Part shown: piece by piece, positions 720 to 25,404 of the stretch
How positions within the stretch are numbered: the first letter of the stretch is position 1
Layout of the letters: each line of letters starts with the position of its first letter
Source of the DNA: Octopus sinensis
Lineage: Eukaryota
Length of the DNA: 35,009 bases
Assembly: GCF_006345805.1 (NCBI RefSeq)
Contig: NW_021829924.1
Coordinates: forward strand, 1 to 35,009
Reading direction: 5' to 3'
Made by a program: the position numbers and the translations under genes
The notes under the pieces: generated by a model
What the model was told of the DNA's origin: nothing
Database searches by the model: none
What the model saw: only the letters and a program-made list of their open reading frames with translations

Positions 720-778
720 GATCACAGCTAAAAATATTGCAAACAGAAAGACCGAAAGGATTAATATCAATGTACCAA
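720..778 (+). CDS. GCLC: GCLC-like exon A (ITAKNIANRKTERININVP)
   Basis: Acceptor ttttctgtccag, donor gtaagt. Matches the GCLC segment TLTRNIRHRRGEKVVINVP and joins in phase to exon B. Confidence 0.85.
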
Positions 779-861
779 GTAAGTTTACTGAACATATATC
801 TAATTACCATTTTAATAAATGAAAAAAACAAATTGTATACAATTATACAAGCTTGAATATG

Positions 862-1030
862 TGCAGGCATGGCTGTGTTGTTTAGAAGCTAATTTTCCAA
901 TCATAAGATTTGGTGCTCAATCCCACTGCACAGCACTTTCGGCAAATGTCTTCTACCATAATCCTGAGCTGACTAAAGCCTTGTGAGTGGATTTTGTGGA
1001 TGGAAACTGAAAAAATCTCGTCATATATAT
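862..1030 (+). mobile_element. tRNA-derived SINE head
   Basis: A-box-like tggctgtgttg and a degenerate B-box, then aaatgtcttctac...aaagccttgtgagtggattt...ggaaactgaaa. Homologous to copies at 1236-1315, 25258-25340 and 27259-27580. Confidence 0.75.
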
Positions 1031-1046
1031 TCTTCAATTCTTCTAC

Positions 1047-1315
1047 ATGTTTCAGTCAGTTGACTGGCCATGCTGGAGCACTGCTTTAAAGGGTTTATTC
1101 TTTTCTAAACCTAGTATTTACTCTATTGGTCACTTTTGCTGAACTGCTAGGTAACAGGGACATAATTACACCAGCAGTGGTTGTCAAGCAATGGTAGGGG
1201 GGAAAACATGGAGACACATACATAAATATATACATGATGGGCTTCTTTCAGTTTCCCTCTACCAAATACACTCACAAGGCTTTCGTAAGCCCAAGGTTAT
1301 AGTAGAAGACACTTG
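1047..1315 (-). mobile_element. SINE (tail + microsatellite linker + partial head), inverted relative to 862-1030
   Basis: Tail tgtttcagtc...gccatgctggagcac matches 26990-27170. 1236-1315 is the reverse complement of 943-1022. Confidence 0.75.
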
Positions 1316-1520
1316 TGTTCTTGAGCATGTCATTTTATTTCACATTGCTCTCGTCCACTCAAGTGGCAAAAAGGAATACAACCCGCATTTCAAAGGGCCG
1401 TCTTTGCTACATTCTGTGTCATGCTGAATCTCCCTGAGAACTATGTTGAGGGTACACATACTTGTGGAGTGGTCAATCACTTGCAGTTAATTTATGTTGA
1501 ACAGATCAATTGGTACACTT
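1316..1520 (+). mobile_element. Second SINE-like repeat family
   Basis: Reverse-complement homolog at 21228-21450 (ttgagca...ttttatttca..ttgct; attctgtgtca...tctccctgagaacta). Confidence 0.65.
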
Positions 1521-1560
1521 TTCTTTGTAATTGGTGGAGAGTGCCAGATGCGTATGTGCA

Positions 1561-1592
<32 letters not shown>

Positions 1593-2121
1593 TTTGAGTG
1601 TATGGACCTATGTCTTGACTTCACATGATGAGGAGGATGAGGATATGAGAATGTGAGTGTATGTGTGCATGCATTTATGTATGTATGTATGTATGTATGA
1701 ATGAATGTATGTATGTATGAAAGTATGTATGTATGTATGAATGAATGTATGTATGTATGCATGTATGAATGTACATATCGTATGTGTTTATGTATGTATA
1801 TTGGTTTATTTTTGTCAAGGTGCAAACCAAAGTAAAGAAAGATAATATTTCTGTCAGAAAACATCCAAAGCAGCAATTTTAGAACAAAATTACTTTGCAG
1901 AATTTACTCTGCAACAATTTCTACAGACAATCCTTCTTGTGCAGTCACATTTGCTGTTAGAGACACAGTAAATCAGCAAAGCAGTGATTGATTCATTGGA
2001 AAACTAAAAATCAATTGCATTATTATCTTCAATATAGATATTAAAATAAAAAAAAAATTGTTAATGAAATGAATTTCTTTCTTATAAGAAAATTGGTAGG
2101 AATTGGGGCATAGTGCTGAAT

Positions 2122-2384
2122 AATTTAAGCCTATATTTTACTGATCAGCGAAGCAATTTAAGCTTAATTTTACTAGTTAATAAAGTGATTTGAGCTAGGT
2201 TTTATTGGTTAATGAATTATTTTGAGCCTGGTTTTAGTGATTAATAAAGTAATTTGAGTCTAATTTTATTGGTTAACGGAAAAAATCGAGGCATGTTTTA
2301 CTGGTTAAGGAAATGATCCGAGTCTAGCTTTATTCATTAAAGAAGTAATTTGAGCCTGGTTTTATTGGTAAATCAAGTGATTTG
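2122..2384. repeat. Minisatellite, about 8 copies of a 32 bp unit (atttgagcctggttttattggttaataaagta)
   Basis: Unit starts recur at about 2123, 2156, 2188 and 2220 with 31-33 bp spacing. Confidence 0.85.
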
Positions 2385-2447
2385 TTTGTGATTTCAATGA
2401 TTACCAAAAAACTGATTTTGTCTCAAACATAAAACTTTTTGTTTCAG

Positions 2448-2665
2448 TTTATAAAGATAAAAATACCATGATGCCATATGGAGAAGATTTCTCTGAATAT
2501 GAAGACAATAAAGTGATGAAGAAACATTTGAAACCAGGACACATTTACATGGACTCGCCAACATTCGGAGTAGGATGTTGTGCTTTACAAGTAACATTTC
2601 AAGCTGCTGATATAAAAGAAGCTACTTATCTCTATGACAGTTTGATACCTCTTACTCCAATTATG
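2448..2665 (+). CDS. GCLC: GCLC-like exon B (IYKDKNT...HIYMDSPTFGVGCCALQVTFQAADIKEATYLYDSLIPLTPIM)
   Basis: Acceptor tttgtttcag, donor gtacgt. Overlaps ORF 2468..2809 and carries the HIYMD..G.G...LQVTFQ signature. Confidence 0.95.
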
Positions 2666-2789
2666 GTACGTATTGTTTTAATGTTTGTTAAGTTATCAAC
2701 AGAGATTATATTGTCAATCAAAATTAACCATTCTCACACCAACCCACCTAAAACGAAAACCATAACCCACACCACCCAATATTTTAAGC

Positions 2790-3392
2790 ATCTCAGCACT
2801 GATTCCTGATGGACCAGGCACTTTAAGTCTTCATATCCTTAATTGCTCTATCTACCAAGGTACTGTCAATTTGGGTAGCTGGTCATTCAATTGTGTTAAC
2901 ATTTGGCAGATTATCCTCCTCCCATTCATTCTCCACATTCAGCAGTCTTTCATAATGGCATTTCCAAGCCTATTTCTTTGCAGACTCATTAAATGCTACT
3001 GCACCGTCATCCATGCGGACACATGTCTCTCTTATGGCATCGTTATTTTCTCTCACACACTGTCTTGCAGTCCAAAATACTTCAGTTCTTTGGTCTTCAT
3101 GTCATTAAACATAGGAAAACTTCTTCTCTGCTTCTCCCTTGGTTAAATATACCTGTCTCCTAGCTCCTCTTCTGGCTATCTGATACAGTTCCCAGCTACT
3201 CCAACTCTTCCAGTCCGTCCAGGCCCATTTCTTTGCTCTAGTAGCTCTGTCTACCACATCATTTCACCACCACATTACCCTAGATCTTTTTGGAACTTCA
3301 CATCACACACAGATTTGGTCTGTGGCACTAAGCAAGCTGTCCCTCAGGAATTCCCAGCTCTCTATGTCACAAGTTTGTAGTTCCTCCTCCCC

Positions 3393-3395
<3 letters not shown>
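2790..3395 (-). mobile_element. RTE-clade LINE internal fragment (linker between endonuclease and RT)
   Basis: Interrupted minus-strand translation WEFLRDSLLSATDQIC..WW*NDVVDRA..AWKCHYERLLNVENEW..AIKDMK. Confidence 0.7.
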
Positions 3396-3439
<44 letters not shown>

Positions 3440-3443
<4 letters not shown>

Positions 3444-3585
3444 AGAATTCACCAAAAAAAAGAAAAATTGAAAGCAGGTGGTGTAGACAACAAACAGATG
3501 TATTAGTATAACACTCATGAAGTGAAAAAGTCTTTAACATTCGAGCCTACACTCTTCGAAAGAAACAAGGAGAGAAAATAAAAAA
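3440..3585 (-). repeat. Copy of the 100-293 repeat
   Basis: gtctttaacattcgagcctacactcttc is the reverse complement of the core, and flanking sequence also aligns. Confidence 0.7.
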
Positions 3586-3768
3586 ATATATATGTGTGTG
3601 TATGTATATATATATATATATATAGATATATATATACACATACATAAATGCATATATCTATCTATCTATCTATATATATATACATACATAAATATACATA
3701 CATATATCTATCTATGTATCTATATATATATATACATACATACATAAATATACATATATATATATATC

Positions 3769-3815
<47 letters not shown>

Positions 3816-3838
3816 CATACATAAATATACATACATAC

Positions 3839-3869
<31 letters not shown>

Positions 3870-3985
3870 TATATATATATATACATAAATATACATACAT
3901 ACATCTATCTATCTATATATATAATATATATACATACATAAATATACATATATATATATATATATATATACTATATATATATATA
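3586..3985. repeat. Compound (TA)n/(TACA)n/(TATC)n microsatellite
   Basis: Direct reading. A further (TA)n block at 4191-4410 lies on the other side of the hammerhead cassette. Confidence 0.95.
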
Positions 3986-4015
3986 CGCGAGAAAGAAGCA
4001 ACAAGAATGGATAGG

Positions 4016-4107
4016 TTTTTAGTACGATCGTTTCATACAAGGACAGGTTTTATTAAAAGTTGCAAAGATTACAGCATATAAACGAGTCCCGTACTCATCA
4101 GCTAAAA
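4016..4107 (-). ncRNA. Type I hammerhead ribozyme motif
   Basis: Minus strand reads ttttag-CTGATGA-gtacgggac-(41 nt loop)-gtccttgtat-GAAA-cgatc-GTA-ctaaaa. It has a 6 bp stem I, a 9 bp stem II with one bulge, a palindromic stem III (ACGATCGT) and a GUA cleavage triplet. Confidence 0.8.
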
Positions 4108-4221
4108 TACATGTAAGTTCTCTAGACATCCTAGTGTTTGAGGCTATACTCATGAAGTAATGTAGATAATTAAACAGATTTCTAAAGTTCACATATATAT
4201 ATACATATATATATACATATA

Positions 4222-4312
<91 letters not shown>

Positions 4313-4317
4313 CTATA

Positions 4318-4373
<56 letters not shown>

Positions 4374-4849
4374 ATATAATATATATATATATAATATATA
4401 TATATATACACATATTCTGTTGTGTCTGGGGAGTGTCATTTTCTTTTTGTGCCTTATAATTAACATCCTCACAGGTAAAATTTCCACTTATTTCTTAATT
4501 TTATTTTTGTAAAATGTTCGTTGCGTCTTGCAACCTTTTCACTAGTCTTGAATCTGTCTATTATTTACACTGTGTTTGTCTTTGTTTGTTTGTGCGCATG
4601 CGTGTGTGTGTGCCTATGCATGCATGTATGTATGTATGTATGTATGTGTGTGTGTGCATTTCTATTTATGTATTCTGCATATTCATGTGCTTGCATGTCC
4701 GAGTTTGTGTATTTTCTATGTATGTGTGTGTGTGAGTGTATGTTTGTATATGTATGCACATCTGTCTCCTTGTGTGTACTTGTCTGTGTGTGTGTATGTT
4801 ATTTCATGTAATGTTGTCTTTGATTTGATGCATTTTATATATTTTCCAG

Positions 4850-4966
4850 TTGGCACTGACTGCTGCTGCTCCTATATATCGAGGATTTTTATCTGATACT
4901 GACTGTCGGTGGTGTTCCCTTTCTCAATCTTGTGATGATCGTACCATGCAAGAACAGGGTTTAGAA
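4850..4966 (+). CDS. GCLC: GCLC-like exon C (LALTAAAPIYRGFLSDTDCRWCSLSQSCDDRTMQEQGLE)
   Basis: Acceptor attttccag, donor gtgagt, 117 nt, phase 0/0. DCRW and DDRT motifs. Confidence 0.95.
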
Positions 4967-5002
4967 GTGAGTAAAAGGACTGTATGTAAATATACTTTTT
5001 GA

Positions 5003-5095
5003 CTTAATCCCTTCACTTCCTATGGAACACAGACCATCAACGACTATCTTTCCATTGTTCTCGATTTGAGGGTATGTTTTCGGCTATGTTTCCGG
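5003..5095 (-). mobile_element. Probable short 3' end of an RTE LINE
   Basis: Minus strand reads NREQWK..VDGLCSIGSEGIK, like RTE ORF C-termini. Confidence 0.4.
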
Positions 5096-5117
5096 CTTCT
5101 TATCATTCAGCTCTTTC

Positions 5118-5807
5118 TTAATCCTTTAACATTTAATCCGGATATATACATCCCAAATATACTACCTATTTTATGCCAAAACTAACCAGATATGACCCTA
5201 CAATGTCATTCTAAAAATAAAGAATGACATCTTTGAAATCCCTAAGCTGTCAGATAATGCATGATTAATTCAAAAAATGTGAATAAATCACTTTTACAAT
5301 TGACAGAATAATCTGAATATTGAGGGTTTAACCCCGTGATGCTGGTATTACCTGAAGCATGTGAGATACTGCTCCTGTATTTTTATCTAATGAGGCCACA
5401 CAAGCACAGAAGTGCCAATGAGCTCGTGTCTATTTATGTTCACCGTTACAATAACATTGACTCGTACATTTATATCTACTTGTTTATGAAAACAAAGCTA
5501 TTTATCATAATATGATAAGCACAAGTTATTCTGCTTAAGTTTAAAAAATAGCTTGCGTGTGGTACAACTCAAAATATGGCTAGTTTCATTACTTGAACGT
5601 AACCTGAAATAGCTAAGATAATGCACAGGACGGCGAGCGTGTACACTTAAAGAGATGAAGTACACAATAGCGAATGTAAACATACGTCAGCCACTAAAAA
5701 GTCCGTGATAGATGTAGGGCAGCTCTACATTGTATATTTACATTCACCGTGGGTAGGCAAGCAAAAGTGTGATCGCATATTTGCGTCAACTGTTGTAGAG
5801 GGGTTAA
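5118..5807. mobile_element. Two adjacent TTAA-bounded non-autonomous (piggyBac-type) elements, 5122-5327 and 5332-5803
   Basis: TTAA at 5118-5121, 5328-5331 and 5804-5807. Termini are tcctttaacatt / aatattgaggg and cccc / gggg. Confidence 0.55.
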
Positions 5808-6641
5808 GGCTTGGGTCAAGTACCAACATGTAATGAAGGATGTTGCTTTCTAGCTATTTTTAGAGTAACCTCTCTTCCATCATACTTGTGGGTTCCAGAT
5901 GGCCATCCCCAATTGCAAATGCCTTCTCTTCCCTGGTCTTGTTTGTTTTATATTGTCATCCATGCTTCTATAACTTTACTTTTGCTTTATTTTATGCAAA
6001 CCAACTTTTACCTCCATGAGTTAGTAGTCCATATTAGTTCAGCCTCTATCCTGTGTACCCAGAAAATAATTATGTTTAAAAGCTTCCTTCACTGGCAAAA
6101 AAACCAAATTGCAGGAGTAAAATTTCCCACTTGTGCCAACATGAGAAAAGATACATGACTGCTTATCTATGGGGTCCACTATGATTATAGACCCACCATC
6201 TGTCTTTCCCTAATTAGAAATTGAGAACCCAATAAAATTTTGACCAACCCATACAAATACACATAGATATATGCACTCACACATGAGATTAAACAGTTGG
6301 ACACCCACCAAATCCTTCCCAAAAAACCTTATACACATTTCAAACATGCACACATATCTATGCATCACATTTTGTTAGCATCACAACTTACTAAGGTTTT
6401 GGGAGGGGAAGGCACATAACTCTTGATGAATCCCATCCTTCTCTTAAATGTCCTTCATGACTTCATTTCATCTTTCTCTCAACACCCAAAAACTAGATGT
6501 GACACTTCATCACCTCCTTTTCTGATACTTGGTATCTGTGATGAGCACAGTTATTAAATAACCTCCTGATTATCTAATATTCAGAGTAAAAATGAATGTT
6601 GAGATCTACTATAATGGGTTTATAACACTACACACACACAC

Positions 6642-6680
<39 letters not shown>

Positions 6681-6912
6681 AGAAGAAAATGCACTAATCC
6701 TTTTGCATTGAAGTTAACTAATTTTAAATATATTATAATAGTCAAATTATTTCAAAATATATTATTGCATCTTCCAAAATATCATGCCACACCTAAAGTA
6801 CATTGCTACAATTAAATCATTTCAGTATTAAATGACGTTAGTTAATGAATAAATATTATAAAATTAATTGCTTTGTTGTTTCATTTATTCTATTCTATCT
6901 TCTCTTTTTCAG

Positions 6913-7051
6913 CCTTTGACAAATGGTAACATTTTGGTGAAGAAAACTCGTTTTGATTCAGTAGGTAGTTACCTTTCCATGAGCGACCAATTTTATAATG
7001 ATTATGATTACAGTTATGATGCTGAACAGTATGAATTACTAAAAGCAGAAG
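6913..7051 (+). CDS. GCLC: GCLC-like exon D (PLTNGNILVKKTRFDSVGSYLS...YELLKAEG)
   Basis: Acceptor tctttttcag, donor gtattt, 139 nt. Aligns with the KSRYDSIDSYLS...YND region. Confidence 0.93.
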
Positions 7052-7320
7052 GTATTTAGAAATTCTCTAAAAACATATAAAAATAAGTTTTGAATTATAT
7101 TTTGAGAAAAAAAAATTGACATTGACCGTTGACAGAATTAATTATCTCTTGTCTTAATTTCACTTAATTTTTTATTACTTAGTTCCAAATTTTTGTCCAT
7201 TTGTCTGTCTGTCTGCCTGCCTGCATACATGCATGCTTACCTACCTATCAATCTACCAATCTATCACTATTTATCAATTATTTATTGTCTTTCCCTTTTC
7301 TCTATCTTTATATAATATAT

Positions 7321-7531
7321 AAAACTAAACTGGATCTCTTCTTGTTGGGAGTCCCAGATGAACCTACCTCACGACAGGAGACACGGATGCGGGCAGCAGC
7401 ATCGAACTCCCTTGTTGATCAAGTGCCACGTATCAGAGGTGGATTCACAAACTAGTGTAGCTCATTCAGCGGTGGTGCCCCAGCATGGCCGCGGCCTTCG
7501 GGCTAAAACATTTTTAAGGATTTTAAGGATT

Positions 7532-7532
<1 letters not shown>
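7321..7532 (+). mobile_element. 3' end of a CR1-group LINE with a (tttaaggat)n tail
   Basis: KTKLDLFLLGVPDEPTSRQETRMRAAASNSLVDQ, then a short UTR and a tandem tail. Homologous to 8555-8830. Confidence 0.75.
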
Positions 7533-7562
<30 letters not shown>

Positions 7563-8554
7563 ACATGTATATATATCTATCTATATATATATAATAGAAA
7601 TATTAAAATTACTAAGTCTCTATAAAAGAGATTACTGCAGCGTTACTGGAAATTAATTGTTATCGCCATATTAATATGGCATTCTTATAGATATAAGAAT
7701 AAACGCTGCCGCTGATTAGCTCCATGAGGCCATCGCCTTAAGATAGCTATTGATACACAATCTGTATCCATTATAACCTTCGAACAAGGGAGGTCAGCCG
7801 TTTCACACTGCCAGTCCGACAGCTACAGGCGCGTTTCAGGCTACAATCCAGCCTACCTCTACTTCTGGAGGGGGGGGGGCATTAAAAAGTTTTTAATGCG
7901 ACGTCCTACGTTACAGATATAAAGGTAAAATTAAATTATTTCCACTTTGCAAGTTCAAGTTGAGTACTCCCTTGCACACTCCGTTGACTCAAACCTTGCT
8001 TCTATTGTGGTGAATTTACCACCTCTGATTAGATATCCATGTGTTCAAATCTTCTTTTTTCTCAACATTGTATACTTTATAGACAATAGTCTTCCCTTTA
8101 ATTTAATTTTTTATTATCCATCTGGACTATTCCATTTCTGCACACTAATTTCATTTTTAATTTATTCCCATTCATGTGAAACCACTTATTCAAGTTCAAG
8201 TCATTGATGTTATGTTACGATTATATTATACTTTAGTTTGATTTTAATTATTACTTACTTCATATATTTCAATAATTATTATTATTTTTATTGTTAAAGT
8301 AAAAGTATCTGACATAAAATAGAAAAATGTTTTTGTTTCCCTTTTAACACGTAATACTGAAATAGTGGAGACGATATGATATTGCTATGGGCTCGCTCTA
8401 GGCAAGAAGTTGAACATTTTTTTTGCCCATGAAACTACATGGACCCTAAGTAAGGCATGTGTAAAATTAGAATGAAATTTGTTGTGTAGTTCTCAAGTTT
8501 TAGGGAAACACACAGACAGACATACAGACAGACACACATTTGAAGTTTTATATG

Positions 8555-8830: not shown

Positions 8831-8834
8831 GAGG

Positions 8835-11080
8835 CTCTAGCACATGGAAAAGGAAGTGACACAGAAATGTGCAACCTTTATTCAGTATTGCTTTTTCAGA
8901 GTTTTCTAGATGTCATCTAATTACATTAATTAGAGACTCAAAGTTAATACCACCTGGTTTGAATATAATGACACCAGTGAATTCATATAAAGCTAGAAGA
9001 GTAGTGGAAAGGGCAGGACAAGCTGTTGTCCGTGAGAGGATCCATTACAACCGTTGCAAAAAACAACTAAATAACGAAATCAAGGAGAAGTTATCTTCAT
9101 TACTTAGGAAATTAACCAGAGATGATGATAGAAAGAGAATCCAATAAGATCTAGAAAAGCCATACATGAAAGAATTTGAAATGGTGAACATACGTCAGAT
9201 TACGAATTTTATGAAACTCAAAGGTCAGAGAATGAAGACTGAAGTCCGTCACCCGCCTGTGAAAGCAGTACTTAATGTAAAAAGCCGACATCTAGAAAGC
9301 TATGAAGAAGTAGTACTGAACAAAGGTCTCAACTTTGCGGCAACTATCAAGCACATTCCATAATTGGACATAATAACCCCTATTCAAGAGATAGCTATAA
9401 AGATACCAAAAGCTCAGGGAGATGAACTACAGTGGAAAGTGAGACAGGTACTAGAAAAAGCAAGACTTTCCAAACCAAACATCACTAAGGAAGAAAAGAC
9501 TATAGAGTGAGAATTCCATCATAATACTTCCAATAGACAAGGGAAATACTACAGTGGTGATGAACAAGTCTGACTACTCTGAAAAATTGGCAAGTCTTAT
9601 AAGTGATGGTAGCTACAGCAAACAAAAGAAAGACCCAACTCTGAAAACAGAGAGGAAGTTGTCATAGATCTTGATCAAGAACAAGGATCATTTTACACCA
9701 ATGAAGTACAGACAACTGACTAAACACTACAGTAATCTACCACACATGTACAGTCTCTCTAAGATTCACAAGGATGGTATTCCATTAATAACCATAGTGA
9801 GTTGTCGAGGTTCAGCATGTCATCCACTGAGCCACTTCCATGTGGATATAATCAATCCATTAGCAGGAAAGTAAACACTGTATGTGAATAATTCCACCCA
9901 CTTCAGAGAATTGACCAATGATACCCACATTGAATTCAACCAGATGGTGAGTCAAAATGTGATAAGTCTGTTAACCAAAATCCCAACTGGTGAAGCACTA
10001 TCATTGATTCAAGAAAAACTAGTGACAGAATGCACTGGTATACAAATAAGAAACTTGATGGAAATGTTGACCTTCTGTGTAGAAACTATCTACTTCAGTA
10101 TGGACACTGATATATATCGACAAGAAGAGGTTTAGCTATGGGCTCACCATTATTACTGATAATAGCTAATATATACATGGAATGCTTTGAGAATTTGGTT
10201 TTATTATCAACACCACTAAAACCAACCCTATGGTTGCGATATGTTGATGAGACCTTTCTACTTTGGCCCCACCAGGAAGATGTCCAAGTGCTGTTAGATG
10301 ATGTGAACTTAAAAAAGACATCCATACCATTCGCAATTGAAAAGTAAAAAGACAATCAGCAAGCATTTCTGGACATAGTAATAACACACACCAAGTATAG
10401 ATTCAGGACATCTGTATACCGCAAGCCAACCTTCACTGGACGATACTTAAACTTCAATTCCCACCATCCATACAGTGTAAAGAAAGGGATTGCTCAGTGC
10501 CTAAAACATTGTGCAACAAATATAAGTAGTGATTGTGATACACACCACAAAGAAATGATCAAGCTCAATAACAACCTATTAAGCAACAACTACCCAAAAA
10601 ACATTCTTTCCACTCCAATTATGAACAAACGAGAGGATGAAACAAATAAACTGTCCACACTTTTTATACCCTATGTGAAAGGCTTCTCCAAAAAGATATG
10701 TGGCCCATATGACATCAGGTCAGTATTCAAGAGTAATACAATACTTTGCAAATATCCCCTTTGAGTAAAACCACCAATAGAAGAGAATATGACCAAAGAT
10801 TGTGTGTACTCCATCCCATGCAGCTGTGGTGGTTATACAAAGGTGAAACCTGCTTAACCCTCTAAATAAGGGTAGACGAACATCACAAAGCTGTGATGTG
10901 AGGAGATATTGATAAATTGAGTATAGCTGACATTGTATGTAAAAATGGAGACCACCTCCCCCTATGGGATGAAGTTAAAATAATCGACAGAGAACACCAC
11001 CGGAAAATACAAAAACTGAAAGAAGCAGCACATATGCTAGGTCACAACAACCTCCTAAGCAAACTGAGTGCAGATATGAG
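8835..11080 (+). mobile_element. Decayed Penelope-like retroelement (RT + GIY-YIG endonuclease)
   Basis: Fragmented ORFs with VLNKGLNFA, YSLSKIHKDGIPL..IVS, AMGSPL..IIANIYME, WLRYVDETF, VYRKPTFTGRYLNFNSHHP and the GIY-YIG signature CVYSIPCSCG..YKGET...RVDEH (10800-10885). Many stops and frameshifts. Confidence 0.92.
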
Positions 11081-11772: not shown

Positions 11773-11828
<56 letters not shown>

Positions 11829-12073: not shown

Positions 12074-12186
12074 GTGTTGATGAAATGATGTCCAGATTTG
12101 TTGCCCAACTTCTTGTAAGAGATCCCATCACTTTATACAAAGAAAAAATCGATCAAGACATTATAAATGATACTGATCACATTCAG
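12074..12186 (+). CDS. GCLC: GCLC-like exon E (GVDEMMSRFVAQLLVRDPITLYKEKIDQDIINDTDHIQ)
   Basis: Acceptor aatcag, donor gtaaaa, 113 nt. Aligns with AHLFIRDPLTLFEEKI...DHFE. Confidence 0.92.
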
Positions 12187-12899: not shown

Positions 12900-12986
12900 A
12901 CCATTATAGCAAGTAACTGGCACAGCATAAAACTGAAGCTTCCTGATGAGAAATCCGGATGGAAAGTGGAATTCAGAACAATGGAG
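12900..12986 (+). CDS. GCLC: GCLC-like exon F (TIIASNWHSIKLKLPDEKSGWKVEFRTME)
   Basis: Acceptor ttttgtttcag, donor gtaaca, 87 nt. Aligns with NIQSTNWQTMRFKPP...GWRVEFRPME. Confidence 0.92.
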
Positions 12987-14660: not shown

Positions 14661-14740
<80 letters not shown>

Positions 14741-14741
14741 T

Positions 14742-16265
14742 AGGAACCAGAGTCCTAATATGTAGAAGGGAGACAAACCACAAATCCCTTCAGGTAGATG
14801 GCCCTGCTCAATCTGTAGTAGAGGCTTAGGTAGAAACTCTATAAGATGTACCCAGTGTAAGCTATGGACACATAAGAAGTGCAGTAATATCAAAGGAAGG
14901 CTAAATGGGAAGATAGTTTTTTTATGTGGGAGATGCTCAGGAGTAATAAACACTGAAAATGCGCAGAAACCAACTTCTACCACATTCCAGGGAGAAAAAC
15001 TAGAAGTAGTTGATGGCTTCCGTTACCTAGGTGACCAAGTCAGTAGCGGAGGTGGGTGCACTGAAAGTGTAGCTGCTAGAATAAGAAGAGCTTGGGCAAA
15101 GTTCAAAGAGCTCTTACCTCTGCTGGCGACAAAGGGCCTTTCGCTCATAGTAAAAGGTAGACTGTATGACACTTGTGTACGAACAGCCATGCTATATGGC
15201 AGTGAAACATGGGCTGTGACTGCTGAGGACATGCGTAAGCTCGCAAGGAATGAAGCCAGTATGATCCGATGGATGTGTAATGTCAGTGTGCATACTCAAC
15301 TGAGTGTAAGTACCTTGAGAGAAAAGTTGGACTAAGAAGCATCAGATGTGGTGTGCAAGAGAGACGATTGCGCTGGTATAGTCATGTGGCAAGAATGGAT
15401 GAGGACACCTGTGTGAAAAATTGCCATACCCTAGCGGTTGAGGGAACCTGTGGAAGAGGTAGACCCAGGAAGACCTGGGATGAAGTGGTGAAGCATGACC
15501 TTCAAACTTAAGGCCTCACCAAGGAAATGACTAGTGACTGAGACCTTTGGAAATATGCCGTGCATAAGAAGACCAGGCAAGCCAAATGAAACCATAATCT
15601 TATGGCCTATGCTAGGGGCGTAACCAACCCACTTGTATGTAACCTATTGCTTCTTTGGTCACTAAAACTCTGCTTGCGAAGACCTGTTAAGGCAAGTGAA
15701 ATCAAATTAAATCAATCAAAATTAAATTCGATTACTGGCGTCCACGCTGGCAGGGTGCAAATAGCACTATACAAGCGTGATCATTGACAGAGCGGTTAAC
15801 CAGCTTCTGTGCCAGTGGCATTTAAATGGCAGCAATCGAGTGTGATCGTTACCAGCATCGCCTTACTGGCACTTGTGCCCGTGCTAGTAGAGTGCCAAGA
15901 GCACCATCCGAGTGTGATCATTGCCAGAGCAGCCAACTGGCTTCCATGCTACCAGCAGCACGTAAAAGACACCATTCGAGCGTGATCGTTACCAACGTCG
16001 CCTTACTGGCACCTGTGCTGGTGGCATGTGTAAAAGGATTTGAGCGAGGTCTTTGTCAGTACCGCCTGACTGGCCCCCGTGCCGGTGGCATGTAAAAAGC
16101 ACCCACTACACTCTCGGAGTGGTTGGCATTAGGAAGGGCATCCAGCTGTAGAAACTCTGCCAAATCAAGATTGGAGACTGGTGCAACCATCTGGTTCCCC
16201 ATCCCTCAGTCCAAATCGTCCAACCAATGCTAGCATGGAAAGCGGACGTTTAAACGATGATTATG
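14742..16265 (+). mobile_element. 5'-truncated RTE-clade LINE (RT C-terminus with PHD-type finger, repeat-containing 3' UTR, gat-type tail)
   Basis: Frame reads WPCSIC..RCTQCKLWTHKKC..CGRC..LEVVDGFRYLGD..LYGSETW..RLRWYSHVARM..GRGRPRKTW. The element ends ...ggacgtttaaacgatgattatga. Confidence 0.9.
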
Positions 16266-16389
16266 AATTATATTATATATAATATATATATTATATATAT
16301 TTGGTAAAAATGGTAAGATACAAAAGAAGAAAGAGACCTCAATATTATGTAAATAGAGGAGATTTATCTGTAAAATAATATGTGACAAT

Positions 16390-16436
<47 letters not shown>

Positions 16437-16694
16437 ATATATATATATGTATATGCATACAAATGAGTAAATATTCAATTGATTATTCATACAGATATTA
16501 TCTTCTTTCAGTTCGTTTTCCATTTCTTGATAGTGACTTCCTGACACCTAGGGCAGAAAATCGTACTGCATATGTTGGTAGGCCATTAAAATAAACACAC
16601 CAAATTATCCATTTATAAAGTCATGTGATAGAGAAATGGAAAAGAAAGAGAGCAAAAATAAAAAGTTAAAAAGTGAACAAAGAAAATTCGCAGC

Positions 16695-17790
16695 AACAAT
16701 GCTCTTTTTAGCATGTGACGTACCAGTTATGGCAATCATTTGCATTTCCTACATGGATGGTATGCCAGACACCATTCTTAAATAATTTTCAGTTTCTTTT
16801 TTGATCATTCCAAGTGCTCCTACAATTACTGGTATTGTAACCATTTTGAGGTGCCACATTTTTTGTCGATTTCAATTAGCAAATCTTTATATTTTCTGAG
16901 CTTAGCAAATTCTTTTTCCGAGATATTATGGTCACAAGGTATGCTCATATCAATCAATAAACAGGCTTTATTGTATTGGTCTTTCACAACAATATCTGGT
17001 TTGTTTGTTTTGATGGTCCGGTCTGTACACACTGATAATTCCCAATGAATACTTACATTTTCTCCCTCAGTTACAGCCTCAGGGTGGTGCTTGTACCATT
17101 TGTCAGCAGTTTTCATTCTATAATGCCGACATATCATCCAATGTAGATATTGGCTAACTCTGTCATGTCTTGATTTGTACTCTACAGGTGCTAAAAACCT
17201 TACATGTGGAGATTAGGTGGTCAACTTTTTCAATCTCATCGTTGCATTAACAGCACTTTGGCTCTACACCATTTTTCATCCCATTGCCTTAGTAGTTCCG
17301 GGTCAATAAGCTCTGTTCTTGGGCAACCAAGATAAATCCTTCACTCTCTGCCTTTAGCCCTGAGCTCCATAGTCACTGATGGGTGTGCTTCTGGTCTACA
17401 TTAGCTTGTTGCTTCGAGTCATATATTTGCCATGCAGGGATTTTTGTTTCCATCTATCAGCCAATTGTTCAAATGCATTTTGTTTTGATATTGATTTCAC
17501 CTTCTTTGCAACTACAGTTGCTGCACTTCCATCATGCTTAATCATAAACTCACTTGAAAATATTTTGCTCTCCTTCATAACAGAATGAAGCTTATGTCTT
17601 TCATGGTTTTCAACAAGCTTTAGCATCCAGTCGTTAGATGTTTCAAGCTATTTAGCCAGTCCAATTATTGTGGTTTTGTAGAAGATTTCAGATTAGATCA
17701 AACCTCAACCTCCTTGAGCTCTGGGTAGGTAAAGATGATATACGTCTGCCTTTTGTTGGTGCATCTTATTGCAAGTCAGTATGTTATGAA
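16695..17790 (-). mobile_element. R4/Dong-like non-LTR retrotransposon 3' fragment with restriction-like endonuclease
   Basis: LYLPRAQGG, SLHGKY, GLKAESEGFILVAQEQSL, RHDRVSQYLHW, NKPDIVVKD...LLIDMSIP...KYKDL and VGALG in interrupted frames. Confidence 0.85.
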
Positions 17791-18137
17791 TGTACCGGTC
17801 AATCTGCCTTATTTCACTCATATTCCAGTTCAACACATTGAAACTGTTAATAAAAACCAGAACTGCTTATTATTATTATTACTATTATTATTATTATCAT
17901 TATTAGTAGTAGTAAATATATAAATAAATAAAAATTAAAATAATAATATTAGTGGCCAGCAAGCAATAATTCTGTTATATGGCTAATCACTAAAATTTTA
18001 TAATTATAATTATAATAGAGAGTACACGAAGTACCAGCTTGCTAGAAATAAGAGTTAAAATCCTCAAACAAGCCACTATCTCACTGAAAAACGTAGTAGA
18101 CCAACATAAATCAGGCAAACAAGCCGAATAATTTGTG

Positions 18138-18500
18138 TAAATGCTGTTTGTGTAACTTTCAATGCCAAAGCTTGGTAAAAGGCCTTCCAGGACTTTCCAT
18201 AAATTTATCGCCTTTGTTCTAGGGAGAAGAATTTTAATTCTTTCAGTCTTTCCTAGTAGCTGATGTGGCACATTGAGATGATTTTCTTTGTGTAGCTTCA
18301 TTGGATAGCTTCGAGTTTCACCATTAATTTTGTGTTGATCATAGTTGGGAGTATTGTGTGCTGAGTGTATTAGGGAGCACATTACCAAATTGGTAATATG
18401 CACTTGAAAAGAAGCCTCACTGCTCACGTCAATGCCCAGGTTACGCACTGATGTTGATTCAGGGATTACAGTTCTTCTTTGACCAGTCAATCCTGTTTGC
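18138..18500 (-). mobile_element. Internally deleted CR1-group LINE fragment
   Basis: VRNLGIDVS..FQVHI and LWKVLEGLLPSFGIESYTN, homologous to WKILEGIVPNFGIVSYTN at 8765-8825. Confidence 0.75.
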
Positions 18501-18503
18501 ATG

Positions 18504-20330
18504 TCATTCAGACGATTCATTCCAAACTTGAGTTATCAGGCTATGGATTTCAGATGAAATATGATCCCCGCCTGCTTTCAGAATTTCAACTAGAATACCA
18601 TCCAATCCATGAGCTACAACTGATCTTAATATACATAATGCCAAATTTACTTCTCCAGTGGAAGGTGTATCATTCATGTGTTGCATTATCTCTCTTTGTG
18701 GCATGTTTATGATATCCATGTTCACTATAGACATATTGTGGAAAAGATCTGCAAAGTGTTCTCTCCATCTATTCATTATTCCAGGAGGATCATTTCCATC
18801 TTCTGACTTCAAGGGAACATCTGATGAAAATTGGAGTCCAAAAGCTTGCCACAATAAACTATAGAAACTTTTAATGTCCTTCCTATCATAGGCTGCCTGT
18901 ACTTCCTCTGACAATTTTCTCCAAGTGTCTTTAAGCCTCCTGAGTTATTTTTGAAATTCTTCTTTTTGAGACTTGTACAACTTTTCTAGCTGTACTGTGT
19001 TCTTAACATTTGGGTTAAGAAGCTTTTCATGAGTGGACTTCTTTGTTGCTAAAAGTTCATTTATCACTGTATCATCTTAAAACTTAACACTTCTGAACCC
19101 ATTTTATATATTTCATTCTGGAAAGATTGTCATGAACCTTCAAAATGAATATTGGTACATCTCTTTTAAAATAACTGCAAAACTTGTGGCCGTTTTAGCT
19201 GCTCTACATCAATTTTCTTTGGTACTTGTATACCTACAAAATGAATTTTCTTGCAGACACTGAACTTGAACTTTGCCCTAACCATTTGGTGTTTAGTATC
19301 ACAATCAGCACCTCGCACTATTCTGCGTCTGCACAAATCTTGTAAGTCACCTTTCCAAGTTAATACAAACTCAATCATGTGACCTTGCTTTGATCTTGGG
19401 GGAATCCATGTTTCATTTTATGATGAGAGCATTCCCAACAATCAACTCTATCTCAGAGAACATTTATAGCAGATGCAACCCATTGTTGTTCACCTTTCCT
19501 ATTCTGTAATGCCCAAGTATATCACAGGCACCTTAGTCTCTATCAACATATGCATGAAAGTCACCCAGTACAACCAGCTTCTCAAAGGCATTGACGGAAT
19601 ACATTTTGTAAGCTCCTCATAAAATGCATGGATATTTTTCTCATTAGCTGAAAGTGTAGGGGCATAAATAGAGAAACAGTTACAAAATGTCCACAAGAAA
19701 GAGGGATCTGGAGTTTCATTATGTGCTTATTTATGTTTTGGTGGTCGTTCTAAGTCTTTTAGCAAATCACTTCTAATTTCAAACCCAACACCACCTTCCC
19801 TTTTCTCTCCCTTTGGCTTCCCAATTCAGCACAATGTAAAACCTGCCACTCTTTCGACAGGATGATCTTCATCTGAAAATCCTTTTTCAGAAAGAGCTGC
19901 TATATCAACATTAAGAAGCCTTAGTTCTTTAGTTACTAGAGCTTTTCTTCTTTCAGACCTACTTGCTCGATCTAAAAGGGTTTTCACATTTCAACAGGCC
20001 AGGTTAAGAGAAACCTTATTGCTTGTATACTTGTTATCGTTGTTTATACCAATTCATTGTTCATTCCTGCTAAATTGAACCACTGTTAGCTGCAGTAAAC
20101 TACCCAGCAGAGAAAGGACAGACAATTTTTATTGCACCTTTTCTAGCACTTTCCCAGTATATCCAGGTGAACGTTGTTCTCTTTATAAGGGCTCCTCAGA
20201 CACAGGATTCTCCACCAAAAACAGTTCCTGTCCATGAAAACATGTTAGTGATGTCAAGATAAGAATCCTGCTACATTATGTGCAGATTTGTAACTGTATG
20301 CCTCCAACCATGCCTCTATAACCATAGGAC
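18504..20330 (-). mobile_element. RTE-clade LINE 5' half (APE endonuclease to start of RT), 3'-truncated
   Basis: LAC*NVKTLLDR..ERRKALVTKEL..NVDIAALSE, GVGF, SIYAPT, PRSKQGHMIEFV, RGADCDTKH, RWREHF and GLDGILVEILKAGG. Confidence 0.88.
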
Positions 20331-20390
20331 TTTAGAAAAATTGATGATTGTATGACGATGCCATTACTAATTATTTTAATATACTTACAG

Positions 20391-20495
20391 GTTCAGCTGA
20401 CTGATTTTGAAAATGCTGCCTTTGTTGTATTTATGCTTCTTCTTACACGTACTATAGTTACTTTCAAACTGAACCTTTTGATCCCGATAACAAAG
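20391..20495 (+). CDS. GCLC: GCLC-like exon G (VQLTDFENAAFVVFMLLLTRTIVTFKLNLLIPITK)
   Basis: Acceptor atacttacag, donor gtaaat, 105 nt. QLTDFEN motif. Confidence 0.95.
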
Positions 20496-20892
20496 GTAAA
20501 TATTGACTTCTCTAAAATAAACATTAAACTCTTTGATCTAACTATAGATATGAGAGCTGTGATAGATATTCTGTCATTAGGTCTCAACTCATTGGATTTT
20601 ATTCACCCTAAAATGTGTATGTTCTTTTACAACAAACTATACTGTGGTAATTATCATAAGAGAAACACTCATTGACATTTTGGTGCCAAATGCACTTTTG
20701 TTAATATTGGTAGCAGGAAGATAAATCCCCACTACATCTAGTGCTGTGATCTCAGATCATGTGATTTCAACTTTGGTCTTGTCACTGATGGATACTTAAA
20801 CACTAGAGACAGCAGTGATTCATCTCCCCACCAGTGATATATAGACTGACAATGCCAGAGCAGACACTTGTGTCATGATTAGCCAGCTACCT

Positions 20893-20931
<39 letters not shown>

Positions 20932-21227
20932 ATGACAGGTGCAGAATTAATACCAAGAGGTGGACAGCTCCAAGCATCATCTTTAATTACAAAACATAAA
21001 TGAAATTAATTTTAAAGTCAACACTGTTTCAATTAATTTAAATTCCTGTTGGGAACACTTATTTTTTTGCTCCTATACAAGTCCCAGCCAATCATAGGTG
21101 CCCATGCTGGGGCACTGTCATCAAAGGATTTTTAAAATGTGTATTAAAACCATTATGTGTTTTGTTAATCATTACATTAAATTATTAAGTTGGCCAAGAT
21201 GTTTCTGTCGCTCAGTCTATTATAACA

Positions 21228-21450
21228 AGTGTTCCAGTCGATCTGATCAATGAGACCCCCTACTCATGAAATTAACATGCAAGTGGCTGAGCATTCCAGA
21301 GAAATACCTTAATGTAGTTCTCAGGGAGATCTAGTGTGACACAGAATGTGGCAACAATGGCCATTTGAAATACAGATACAATGTACTTTTTCCAGTTGAG
21401 TGCACTCAAGCAACATGAAATAAAATGTCTTGCTCAAGAACTCAACACAC
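21228..21450 (-). mobile_element. SINE-like repeat, inverted homolog of 1316-1520
   Basis: Direct reverse-complement similarity. Confidence 0.65.
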
Positions 21451-21511
21451 CATTAGGTAATTATCAATCCCATTTTATACATATTTACCATATCATTTCA
21501 CCCTCTGTAAG

Positions 21512-21593
21512 GTTGATGAAAACTTCCTACCAGCACAAAAGCCAGATGCCATTAATAAAGAGAAATTTCATTTCAGAAAAGATGTTCAAAAAG
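21512..21593 (+). CDS. GCLC: GCLC-like exon H (VDENFLPAQKPDAINKEKFHFRKDVQK)
   Basis: Acceptor ctctgtaag, donor gtaaga. Aligns with VDENM..AQKRDA...FYFRKD. Confidence 0.9.
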
Positions 21594-21708
21594 GTAAGAG
21601 CTATATTTATTGGAAATTTTCAGAATTACAATAAATAAAATTTTACTTTAATTAAATATTGATTGGAATGCAAACTTCCCTATCACAAAGCCATGCATGT
21701 GTATATAT

Positions 21709-21830
21709 AGGGAAAAATTCACAAAATATATGTATTAGTTTAATGCTCGGAAAGTGAAAAACTCTTTAATGTTTTGAGCCTATACTCTTCCACAGAAAGG
21801 AACACAGAAAGAGACAAGGAGAGAAAATGT
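21709..21830 (-). repeat. Copy of the 100-293 repeat
   Basis: ctctttaatgttttgagcctatactcttc core. Begins at (TA)n-gggaaaaattcac, like 3440. Confidence 0.65.
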
Positions 21831-22825
21831 AGTGGCTAGTAATCTATCATGGCAAATGCCAGACAGAGGGGTCACATAGGAGAGCTTGTAAGAAATGGAG
21901 ATAATAAAGTAGTGGTGATCCCAAACCGAAGGTGTGCGTGCATTTGTATAACAGAGCATGTATGTGCATTTGGAAGAGGGGTGGGGGCACTGACATGTAC
22001 GTGTGTGTATGTGCAGGTCTGTGGATAATGGTGTGGGTCTGGGAAGTTTTAAGTGCTAGTGTGTGCATTGTGATGTGATGTGGTGGTGTGTGGTGTGGTG
22101 TGGTGTGATGGTGTTGGGATGTGGGGAAGGTAAGAGTGGGGAAAGCAAGTGTGGGGTATGGTTTAGGCTGAGGGTGGTGGTATAGGTAGGGTGTGTGGGA
22201 GTGATTGTAATTTAAGAAATTAAAAAAAATTAAATTCTAAATTTTAGATTTTATATATATATTATATATTATATATTAATTATATTTATATTTTTTGTTA
22301 TTTATGTATTGGTTTATGTCTACCACTGCTTCAGTTGCCTAATAGTAGTTTTATCTCTAATTTAATTTATATATATATATATATAATGGAATAATTACTA
22401 TGAATCATTATTGTATAAAGGATCGTGATTAAGGCCAGAACAATGCGACGTAAACGCAAGGCAAATTACAAGAAAACAAATATATGAATTAATGCAAACT
22501 TACCTTGCATTCAATATTTTGGGCTTCTCTGTCACACCCTGTTTAAAAATTTTAAATTATGATTAATGACTTGTAGGCACACAGTATTTTGTAATGCAAC
22601 CATAATATGCTATGAAGAATAACCGTTTTTATAAGTCAGTACCATGTACTACTGTGTTAGCAGTGTACTTAAATTGTGTGTTAAAATCTGTAGAGATGAA
22701 ATTAATACATGATCTAAGTTATGAGTTTTTGCATCATAATCATAGCAAGCAGTTTGCCTGTCACACTATATAGCACATATATTTATTGTACTAAATCTAT
22801 AATTGTTTTATTTCCTGTCACTTAG

Positions 22826-22890
22826 AATCTTCTGAACTAACTCAGGATATTTACAGTTTGATGACTTTAAATGAAATCATGAATGGAAAG
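22826..22890 (+). CDS. GCLC: GCLC-like exon I (ESSELTQDIYSLMTLNEIMNGK)
   Basis: Acceptor cctgtcacttag, donor gtaaaa, phase 1/0 fits both neighbours. Aligns with EYTLMSIDTIINGK. Confidence 0.87.
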
Positions 22891-23397
22891 GTAAAATATA
22901 TTTTTTTAAAAATTGAAAACAATTTTTATTAATTTAGAATACAAACATAAATAACGTTATTCAGAAACAAAAATTATCTGGAACAATATTTAAAAAACAA
23001 AATTGTGGTTCTAATTACTCCTGCATAGATACTGAACAAAGTCAAACTTAAAATCATTTAACCTGTTTGTGCATTAAAATAGTACATATCTGCTAATTCA
23101 GTTTATGTGTGTGTGTATTTATATATAGTATTGAATTATGCTGCCTCTATATACATTGACTACTGATGTTTAGTTTGTCTATGTTCATACTTTTGTGTAT
23201 GAATAGTGTCATGTCATATGAGCATACATATATATGATTTTTATTATAAGAAGGATATTGAAATTCTTTTCATATCTTTCTCCATTCTTTTACCACTAAA
23301 ATATCAATAACTATTTGGTCAATACCTCAATCAATTTCTAATCTATGGGATAGAAATCTGAAACTATTTTCAATTATTTTGATTCTATTATCAACAG

Positions 23398-23515
23398 GAT
23401 GATTTCCCTGGTTTAATTCCTCTCATACACAAATATCTTGATTATATTGACTACGATTTCAGCAAAAGACCTAAAATAATGCAATACCTGAAATACATCT
23501 CAGACAAAGCTGCAG
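23398..23515 (+). CDS. GCLC: GCLC-like exon J (DDFPGLIPLIHKYLDYIDYDFSKRPKIMQYLKYISDKAAG)
   Basis: Acceptor tatcaacag, donor gtgaga. FPGLIP motif. Confidence 0.93.
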
Positions 23516-23897
23516 GTGAGATTATTCATTTTCCTCAAGAGTAATGTTATTTTAAATATACAACATTTATCTGTTAGTTACTTTTTCAATTATAAAATAC
23601 AATGTGAATCTGTATTTTATCCCTGTAACCCCTATTATTAATAAATCATCACACTCTAAACACTTATATGAAAGACCATGTGTGAATAGTATTCCTTCCA
23701 AATTATGTCCTGCGGTTAAATCATTCTACCATAGTTTGGTTTTAAACAAGATTTTCAAAACAATTATCACGGCTAACATTAATGAAGAAAAGAAACAGAT
23801 AAGTGTTTTTCTATTTGTGCCATAGATCATGGGGATAGGATATTGTTACAAAATACAGCGGAAAATAAGCCAATTTTTATTTTCATTTATTTTATAG

Positions 23898-24064
23898 GAA
23901 AGATAATGACAATGGCCCAATGGACAAGGCAATTTGTTACAAATCATGAAGAGTACAAGAATGATTCTTTTGTCAGTGACAGAATCACATACGATTTTAT
24001 TATGGAATGTGAAAAGATTGTCAACAATGAAGAAGGACTTCCACAACCATTTATCAAGTGTTAA
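23898..24064 (+). CDS. GCLC: GCLC-like terminal exon K (GKIMTMAQWTRQFVTNHEEYKNDSFVSDRITYDFIMEC...FIKC*)
   Basis: Acceptor ttattttatag, stop TAA. Aligns with [26 protein letters not shown]. Confidence 0.93.
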
Positions 24065-24110
24065 CAAAATTCTGACAACTTCATCTGTTACGAGCTACAA
24101 TCAGCCTAAA

Positions 24111-24790: not shown

Positions 24791-24837
24791 GTATGCCCTA
24801 CACATAATATATAACCTACATAACTATAATACAACTT

Positions 24838-25340: not shown

Positions 25341-25404
25341 GTGTGTATATGTATATATTATACACACATATATATATATATATATCCATATATATATATA
25401 TTAT

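What the first reader, a model, noticed from the sequence alone, without database searches (positions are those of the whole stretch)
720..24064. Intact but active-site-rewritten GCLC: candidate neofunctionalised gamma-glutamyl ligase or pseudo-enzyme
Seen: 11 exons splice into an unbroken frame despite heavy TE invasion, so the gene looks maintained. Known: eukaryotic GCLC motifs are very strongly conserved (canonical forms recalled from memory). Here DAMGFGMG(N/C)CCLQ becomes DSPTFGVGCCALQ, so the Cys before LQVTFQ is Ala (codon 2582-2584). KSRYDS becomes KTRFDS (Tyr to Phe, 6952-6954). HFENIQSTNWQTMRFKPP becomes HIQTIIASNWHSIKLKLP, and GWRVEFRP becomes GWKVEFRT. DCRW, LQVTFQ, NW, the Lys of the RFK motif and EFR are kept. 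Inference: changes around substrate/glutathione-binding motifs with a retained ligase core suggest a paralog with altered substrate or feedback properties. It could also be an enzyme recruited to a structural role, as with GST-derived S-crystallins in cephalopods.
Basis: partly seen in the sequence, partly recalled or inferred. Interest (0 to 1): 0.8.

Follow-up and report, generated by a model that had tools for sequence, protein, structure and literature searches.

The report
Octopus family of rewired glutathione-ligase copies
This octopus gene is one of seven conserved extra copies of the enzyme that starts glutathione synthesis, is itself spliced into RNA, and keeps the metal- and ATP-handling residues while the predicted cysteine-binding side differs from copy to copy, so these copies likely join glutamate to other, still unknown partners.

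Summary
Observation confirmed, with one correction: the 11 exons are exons 6-16 of a 16-exon gene. Exons 1-5 most likely lie on contig C28 beside an assembly gap, giving 605 aa. The genome holds one canonical GCLC (C4) and seven divergent paralogs, 66-81% alike to each other and 50-54% to the canonical copy; the clade also occurs in two other Octopus species and in Argonauta. The window's gene is spliced with 0 mismatches in 4 of 4 runs laid and is under purifying selection (branch dN/dS 0.19). All eight paralogs scored keep E50, E52, E96, E103, Q268, Q272, K451, E470 and R472 (yeast numbers). H194, R196, L200, M258 and M262, near-invariant in 177 canonical proteins, are hypervariable. Best reading (0.55): ATP-dependent gamma-glutamyl ligases with changed acceptors. 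No activity was tested and the tissue is unknown. Similar copies seem to have arisen separately in a clam, a horseshoe crab and a sea cucumber. This scan noted the same pattern before in an arthropod and a fungus. My paper searches found no description.

The parts
720..778 (+). Exon 6 of 16 (59 nt); begins with the last base of a split codon
   Evidence: AG/GT ends; same size as exon 6 of all paralogs and of canonical GCLC; phase fits exon 5 on C28
2448..2665 (+). Exon 7 (218 nt): M258P, M262V, C266A; Q268 and Q272 kept
   Evidence: 7 copies of this exon found in the assembly at 83-100% identity
4850..4966 (+). Exon 8 (117 nt): R313 kept
6913..7051 (+). Exon 9 (139 nt): Y362F
   Evidence: its 3' end is the loose end ahead of exon 10 in 3 of 4 runs
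12074..12186 (+). Exon 10 (113 nt): E438Q
   Evidence: joined to exon 11 across a GT..AG skip of 713 nt in 4 of 4 runs
12900..12986 (+). Exon 11 (87 nt): N444, W445, K451, E470, R472 kept; Q441I, T443S, R449K, R468K; 2-residue deletion
20391..20495 (+). Exon 12 (105 nt)
   Evidence: its 5' end is the loose end behind exon 11 in 4 of 4 runs
21512..21593 (+). Exon 13 (82 nt)
22826..22890 (+). Exon 14 (65 nt; 98 nt in canonical GCLC)
23398..23515 (+). Exon 15 (118 nt): the cysteine equal to mammalian Cys553 is Pro
23898..24064 (+). Exon 16 coding part (167 nt) to TAA; 26 codons shorter than the canonical last exon (245 nt)
16739..25400 (+). Block (exons 12-16 and flanks) present again at 95-96% identity on contigs C8846, C9159 and C10460 without exons 6-11; the C10460 copy has a stop, the C9159 copy a 1-base deletion

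Best explanation
The window holds the 3' two-thirds of a transcribed, conserved member (here called G) of a seven-gene octopod family derived from GCLC, whose members likely still activate glutamate with ATP and Mg2+ but likely pass it to acceptors other than cysteine, probably a different one for each paralog. Shown: gene structure, paralogy, splicing, purifying selection, kept and changed residues. Inferred from the yeast enzyme: E50/E52/E96/E103/E470/Q268 would hold the Mg2+ ions, K451/R472/Q272 the ATP, and R472/R313 the glutamate, so a gamma-glutamyl phosphate would form; an incoming amine would be steered by E96. G keeps E96 and W445 (the contacts to the amino and carboxyl groups of cysteine), so its acceptor is probably still an alpha-amino acid with another side chain; A and E have lost W445 and may take amines of another kind. 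C266A, Y362F, loss of the Cys553 equivalent and of the C-terminal tail would weaken glutathione feedback and redox or modifier-subunit control (inferred, untested). The canonical C4 gene would continue to supply glutathione.
For: Canonical copy kept on C4 with 189 of 195 near-invariant sites; each paralog keeps 127-139. Nine catalytic-core residues kept in 8 of 8 (seven paralogs plus Argonauta); their roles are from Table 3 of PMC5613772 (section read), numbered through the 3IG5 alignment. H194, R196, L200, M258, M262 are kept in 176-177 of 177 canonical proteins but show four or more states among the eight. Family dN/dS 0.28; branch to G 0.19, window exons alone 0.16, both far from 1 (p about 1e-14 and 1e-11). 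M8 beats M8a (p=0.005) with 8% of sites at omega 1.7; 5 of 7 top sites lie in the four active-site segments. AlphaFold model of paralog D: pLDDT 89, TM 0.89 to 3IG5. Only one host-type glutathione synthetase locus was found, so the second step of the pathway shows no matching expansion. Stem branch about 1.0 change per site against 0.12-0.14 for octopus canonical GCLC.
Against: No activity, product or tissue is known. R449 and R468, kept in 176 of 176 canonical and 145 of 147-148 distant proteins, are Lys in G (R468K in 8 of 8, R449K in 7 of 8), and T105 is Lys in 6 of 8; by spacing these match ribose contacts in the Leishmania model, so the nucleotide site has changed too and turnover may be low or nil. 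E has lost R313 and W445, A has lost W445. M1a versus M2a is not significant (p=0.07); the site test uses seven sequences, empirical-Bayes without error on parameters, and gene conversion could inflate it (exon 15 of G is 94% like C and D against 74-89% for their other exons). The assignment of 194-200, 258 and 262 to the cysteine pocket is recalled, because the structure papers were not held, and the four segments were drawn after seeing the alignment. The join of exons 1-5 to the window is inferred, not read through.
Confidence: 0.55

Rival explanations
1. The paralogs still make gamma-glutamylcysteine but have escaped glutathione feedback and modifier-subunit control, giving tissue-specific high output for detoxification or metal handling.
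For: Core and the E96/W445 anchors are kept in G. Ala at C266 is compatible with activity in Leishmania. The Cys553 equivalent, a regulatory modification site in mammals (PMC6875399, one passage), is lost in 8 of 8.
Against: One shared product does not explain why five near-invariant positions differ among paralogs or carry the top omega values. Glutathione synthetase shows no matching expansion.
Confidence: 0.2
2. The paralogs are pseudo-enzymes: they keep the fold and perhaps metal and nucleotide binding but act as ligand-binding, scaffold or bulk structural proteins, as S-crystallins do.
For: Long stem branch; 25 near-invariant sites lost in all eight, among them R468; E lacks R313 and W445, A lacks W445. 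Cephalopods have co-opted glutathione S-transferases as lens proteins (PMC13218726, passages).
Against: All five metal-binding glutamates, Q268, Q272, K451 and R472 are kept in eight proteins that are only about 56-81% alike; a non-catalytic protein would be expected to lose some. No lens or tissue data support it.
Confidence: 0.2
3. It is a decaying duplicate or an assembly artefact.
For: The contig is unplaced and 5'-truncated; three broken or partial copies of its 3' part exist, so the family does shed dead copies.
Against: Open 605-codon frame with canonical splice sites, spliced contigs with 0 mismatches in four studies, branch dN/dS 0.19.
Confidence: 0.03

Closest known systems
Eukaryotic glutamate-cysteine ligase catalytic subunit (GCLC, yeast Gsh1; Pfam PF03074; PDB 3IG5, 3IG8, 3LVV, 3LVW)
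   Same: Same fold (TM 0.89 for paralog D), same 16-exon layout as octopus GCLC, same metal, ATP and glutamate-activating residues.
   Different: Seven extra copies; positions 194, 196, 200, 258, 262 hypervariable; C266, Y362, Q441, T443, R449, R468, T105 changed in most or all; Cys553 equivalent and C-terminal tail lost.
GS-like effectors of cyst and reniform nematodes (PMC5919673; abstract and passages read)
   Same: A single-copy glutathione-pathway ligase expanded into a family with ATP site and catalytic residue conserved and one half of the substrate pocket hypervariable; canonical activity was lost there.
   Different: That family derives from the second enzyme (glutathione synthetase) and gained signal peptides for secretion. 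The octopod proteins derive from the first enzyme and show no hydrophobic N-terminal stretch typical of a signal peptide (crude hydropathy scan only).
Bacterial carboxylate-amine ligases of the glutamine synthetase/GCL superfamily (YbdK, PafA/Dop, naphthylamine GS; structural neighbours)
   Same: Show that this fold can join a glutamyl group to acceptors other than cysteine (functions recalled; one search gives only titles and scores).
   Different: 7-12% identity; separate families, not GCLC paralogs.
Cephalopod S-crystallins (glutathione S-transferase derived)
   Same: Cephalopod expansion of a glutathione-related enzyme.
   Different: Another fold and gene family; here the catalytic core is kept and nothing points to the lens.

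Membership tests
Eukaryotic GCLC (protein family) | PF03074 match and GCL fold | tested here: met
   Window exons score over the PF03074 cut-off; model of paralog D matches 3IG5 at E 4e-50, TM 0.89
Eukaryotic GCLC (protein family) | Descent from the animal GCLC gene | tested here: met
   Same intron positions; sister to octopus GCLC under a mixture model (SH-aLRT 99, 92); shares 16 of 62 octopus-private residues against 0-4 of 43-60 for 16 other molluscs. FastTree with many long branches placed it elsewhere
Canonical GCL enzyme (EC 6.3.2.2) | Metal ligands E50, E52, E96, E103, E470, Q268 | tested here: met
   Kept in 8 of 8; for G the first four come from the C28 exons whose join to the window is inferred
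Canonical GCL enzyme (EC 6.3.2.2) | Nucleotide contacts K451, R472, Q272, D49, R449, R468, T105 | tested here: inconclusive
   First four kept; R449K, R468K, T105K in G
Canonical GCL enzyme (EC 6.3.2.2) | Glutamate contacts R472, E52, Y362, R313, C266 | tested here: inconclusive
   R472, E52, R313 kept in G; Y362F and C266A changed. R313 and C266 roles partly recalled
Canonical GCL enzyme (EC 6.3.2.2) | Near-invariant acceptor-side residues H194, R196, L200, M258, M262 | tested here: not met
   G has I, Y, T, P, V; four or more states each among eight paralogs. Pocket assignment recalled
Canonical GCL enzyme (EC 6.3.2.2) | Forms gamma-glutamylcysteine, is inhibited by glutathione and BSO, binds GCLM | not testable with these tools
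   Needs enzyme assays; no GCLM sequence was at hand for a complex prediction
Pseudogene | Broken frame, no transcript, or dN/dS near 1 | tested here: not met
Enzyme-crystallin / structural pseudo-enzyme | Very high lens-specific expression with loss of catalytic residues | tested here: inconclusive
   Catalytic core kept; tissue not available because run labels are coded

The most novel reading that the evidence does not exclude
Animals have repeatedly turned GCLC into new gamma-glutamyl amide or peptide synthetases, and octopods expanded one such copy into a panel of at least seven enzymes with different acceptors, making an undescribed set of gamma-glutamyl metabolites (for example amine conjugates, pigment or metal-binding peptides, or secreted-gland compounds).
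Probability: 0.4. Interest if true: 0.8.

Novelty: new variant of a known kind. Interest (0 to 1): 0.58.

Why it matters
GCLC is usually treated as a single-copy housekeeping enzyme with a nearly frozen active site. A maintained seven-member family with a fixed catalytic core and a variable acceptor side gives a ready test set: seven soluble enzymes, one canonical control from the same genome, and clear residues to swap. It could reveal new small-molecule chemistry in octopus and show which residues set acceptor choice in this fold. It also warns that databases label these genes as glutamate-cysteine ligase or ligase-like, so octopus stress studies may read their expression as glutathione synthesis.

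Tried and rejected
Ten paper-search calls were answered (one search failed on syntax): octopus with glutamate-cysteine ligase, GCLC, gene family expansion, gamma-glutamyl synthetase or O. vulgaris transcriptome terms, and GCL with neofunctionalisation or residue names. I saw listings only, except for the papers cited; none describes this family. The library lacks most subscription papers and the searches do not cover supplements, where differential-expression tables may list these genes. The yeast and E. coli structure papers and one review were not held. PMC13218726 (cuttlefish genome; passages) does not mention the family; PMC7261830 (passages) gave no pocket list; PMC7545470 (passages) mentions the octopus pigment adenochrome but gives no link to a ligase, so that idea stays a guess. 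No run was on record as RNA ('no RNA holder listed'); the evidence for transcription is the intron-skipping joints. No squid or cuttlefish protein appeared among the rows listed, not even a canonical one, so this says nothing on whether they have the clade. No DNA overlap links the window to the C28 gap edges. The idea of one ancient 'GCLC2' clade was considered: FastTree grouped the long branches, but the mixture model put each beside canonical proteins of its own lineage or left it unresolved, so I read the FastTree result as long-branch attraction. The compact GCLC copies on C9530 and C8391 were first taken for retrocopies and rejected: they have many tiny introns. A Pfam check of intron repeats failed on a wrong frame and was not repeated. 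No complex prediction was run.
Full report
Observation. The cited codons and motifs are as stated. The window is a whole unplaced contig, C6395, of a 2.72-Gb assembly. Proteins that databases label Octopus sinensis translate exactly or nearly exactly from exons of this assembly, so it is an octopus genome.

The gene is longer than the window. The window protein aligns from about residue 187 of its relatives. A search with the N-terminal 202 residues of a paralog found five orphan exons at C28:12161831-12148530 (minus strand) with no 3' exons behind them and a 100-N gap 1.5 kb downstream. Their sizes (150, 107, 108, 66, 117 nt) match exons 1-5 of all paralogs, exon 5 ends in the phase that window exon 720-778 needs, and together they give one open frame of 605 codons. 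They are the only orphan exons 1-5 and the window has the only orphan exons 6-16 found. One run's contig reaches about 670 nt beyond the window's first exon by length, which fits. The join is inferred; no DNA overlap or spanning read was seen.

It is one of seven. PF03074 gave 60 exon-level matches. Resolved, they are one canonical GCLC on C4 and seven divergent genes: A-D in a tandem block at C28:15.83-16.08 Mb, E at 12.18-12.22 Mb, F split by gaps at 2.10 and 2.30 Mb, and the window's gene G, which would sit right behind E. A DNA search with exon 7 found 7 copies (a lower bound). All share the 16-exon layout of the canonical gene. A-G are 66-81% identical to each other and 50-54% to the canonical protein. 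Orthologs of A-F are annotated in O. vulgaris, of C-F in O. bimaculoides, and one member in Argonauta hians; no annotated ortholog of G appeared in the listed rows.

Origin. In a 64-protein tree (IQ-TREE, C20 mixture, short search, SH-aLRT only) the divergent genes form one clade (100) that is sister to octopus canonical GCLC (99), on a stem of about 1.05 changes per site against 0.14 for the canonical copy. Adding 26 other long-branch proteins under FastTree pulled the clade away from the molluscs. On 24 rows with the mixture model it returned to octopus GCLC (92, below the 95 mark). Independently, the paralogs share 16 of 62 residues private to octopus GCLC, against 0-4 of 43-60 for each of 16 other mollusc proteins. 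So the duplication happened within cephalopods, before Argonauta and Octopus split. Squid and cuttlefish were not represented in the hits.

It is maintained and transcribed. Four runs from four studies, under two organism codes, each hold a contig that skips the 713-nt intron between exons 10 and 11 with 0 mismatches; loose ends match the end of exon 9 (3 of 4 runs) and the start of exon 12, 7.4 kb further on (4 of 4 runs). The runs are guessed, not recorded, to be RNA, and tissues are not given. My own GY94 codon models on the seven paralogs (601 codons) give omega 0.28 overall and 0.19 on the branch to G (0.16 for window exons alone; omega=1 rejected at p about 1e-14 and 1e-11).

What is kept and what is changed. 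Yeast numbers come from the 3IG5 alignment, and contacts from Table 3 and nearby text of PMC5613772 (one section and passages). I compared seven paralogs plus Argonauta with 177 non-octopod GCLCs over 550 aa (shorter rows and octopod rows dropped) and 149 representatives at 50% identity. Kept in 8 of 8: D49, E50, E52, E96, E103, C264, Q268, Q272, N444, K451, E470, R472. G also keeps Y97, F197, R313 and W445. Changed in all or most: T105, C266, Y362, E438, Q441, T443, R449, R468, the Cys553 equivalent and the C-terminal tail. Of 195 near-invariant sites, 100 are kept in all eight, 25 are lost in all with few states, and 12 are hypervariable; these 12 include H194, R196, L200, M258, M262, N439 and S442. 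M8 fits better than M7 (p=2e-5) and M8a (p=0.005), M2a not clearly better than M1a (p=0.07); of seven sites with posterior over 0.9, five lie at yeast 98, 194, 198, 201 and 258. In four active-site segments 8 of 24 near-invariant sites have four or more states against 7 of 171 elsewhere, and 5 of 38 codons against 2 of 563 pass 0.9; these segments were drawn after seeing the data and from recall of the yeast pocket, so the p-values are optimistic. The fold is intact: AlphaFold on paralog D (not G) gives pLDDT 89 and TM 0.89 to 3IG5.

Mechanism. The residues that bind Mg2+ and ATP and form gamma-glutamyl phosphate are fixed across proteins that have drifted 20-45% apart, while the side where the second substrate is expected to sit differs between paralogs and shows signs of positive selection. 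The simplest reading is a set of gamma-glutamyl ligases with different acceptors (0.55). G keeps E96 and W445, which contact the amino and carboxyl groups of cysteine in yeast, so an alpha-amino acid acceptor is likely for G; A and E lack W445 and E lacks R313. Against this, three probable ribose contacts (T105, R449, R468) have changed together, which could mean re-tuning or loss of turnover. Only one host-type glutathione synthetase locus (C1) was found besides two compact copies, which argues against a plain dosage increase of the glutathione pathway. Rivals are a feedback-free cysteine ligase (0.2) and a pseudo-enzyme (0.2). No step of catalysis was shown.

Wider pattern. 28 of 149 distant representatives differ at 4 or more of 10 chosen pocket-side positions, most with the core intact. 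Ten of the 28 were looked up: Mytilus, Mercenaria, Tachypleus, Apostichopus, Lingula, Oppiella, two fungi and two unnamed. Under the mixture model Mercenaria joins Mactra (82), Tachypleus joins a spider (95) and Apostichopus joins a group with the deuterostomes (90); Mytilus and Lingula are unresolved; none joins the octopod clade. This suggests repeated independent origins. I did not check that these species also keep a canonical copy. Two earlier notes of this scan describe the same pattern in an arthropod and a fungus; I reached my reading before seeing them and did not test those loci.

Comparison and verdict. By descent and fold these are GCLC-family proteins; as enzymes they fail the acceptor-side test for canonical GCL and cannot be filed as such. 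The closest worked case is the nematode GS-like family (PMC5919673; abstract and passages), which rewired the second enzyme of the same pathway. My searches of the open library found no account of the octopod family (listings). Verdict: real, a new variant of a known kind, interest 0.58.

Noticed in passing
G000:C9530:17304-19481 (L030) and C8391 (L031); also C9082 and C8595: A compact, canonical-type GCLC whose reading frame is interrupted every few dozen codons by gaps of about 20-30 nt, with GT..AG candidates of 19-36 nt; two glutathione synthetase copies look similarly compact. Likely DNA of a co-sequenced small-intron organism, such as a dicyemid kidney parasite (tiny dicyemid introns are recalled, not tested).
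   Followed up: partly
window 16739-25400 versus C8846, C9159, C10460: Three contigs carry 95-96% copies of the 3' part of gene G; all three alignments start at window 16739 and no copy of exons 6-11 was found in the stretches fetched (98% of C9159, 35 of 54 kb of C10460, 70 of 338 kb of C8846). One has a stop, one a frameshift: partial segmental duplicates.
   Followed up: partly
P0023 (O. vulgaris QHX41528.1): This record is paralog F for most of its length but ends in a last exon identical in protein to G's: a chimeric transcript assembly or gene conversion.
   Followed up: no
G000:C28:15937981 (B), 16029704 (D), 12183179 (E): B's intron 15 donor reads AT and D's exon 13 acceptor reads AA in the assembly (errors or real lesions); E has a duplicated exon 15 used in an alternative annotated isoform; E's first donor is GC.
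   Followed up: no
window 28003-29643 (+): A 347-codon frame followed by a Cys-rich frame that look like a broken piggyBac-type transposase (by eye).
   Followed up: no
window about 9000-11050, 14766-15400, 16800-17900, 18500-20100: Intron remnants that look like Penelope-like and LINE reverse-transcriptase elements (by eye, not confirmed by a family search).
   Followed up: no
P0218, P0235, P0219, P0221, P0236, P0224, P0342, P0348: GCLC-like proteins of mussel, clam, horseshoe crab, sea cucumber, brachiopod, mite and two fungi with core kept and pocket-side motifs changed.
   Followed up: partly
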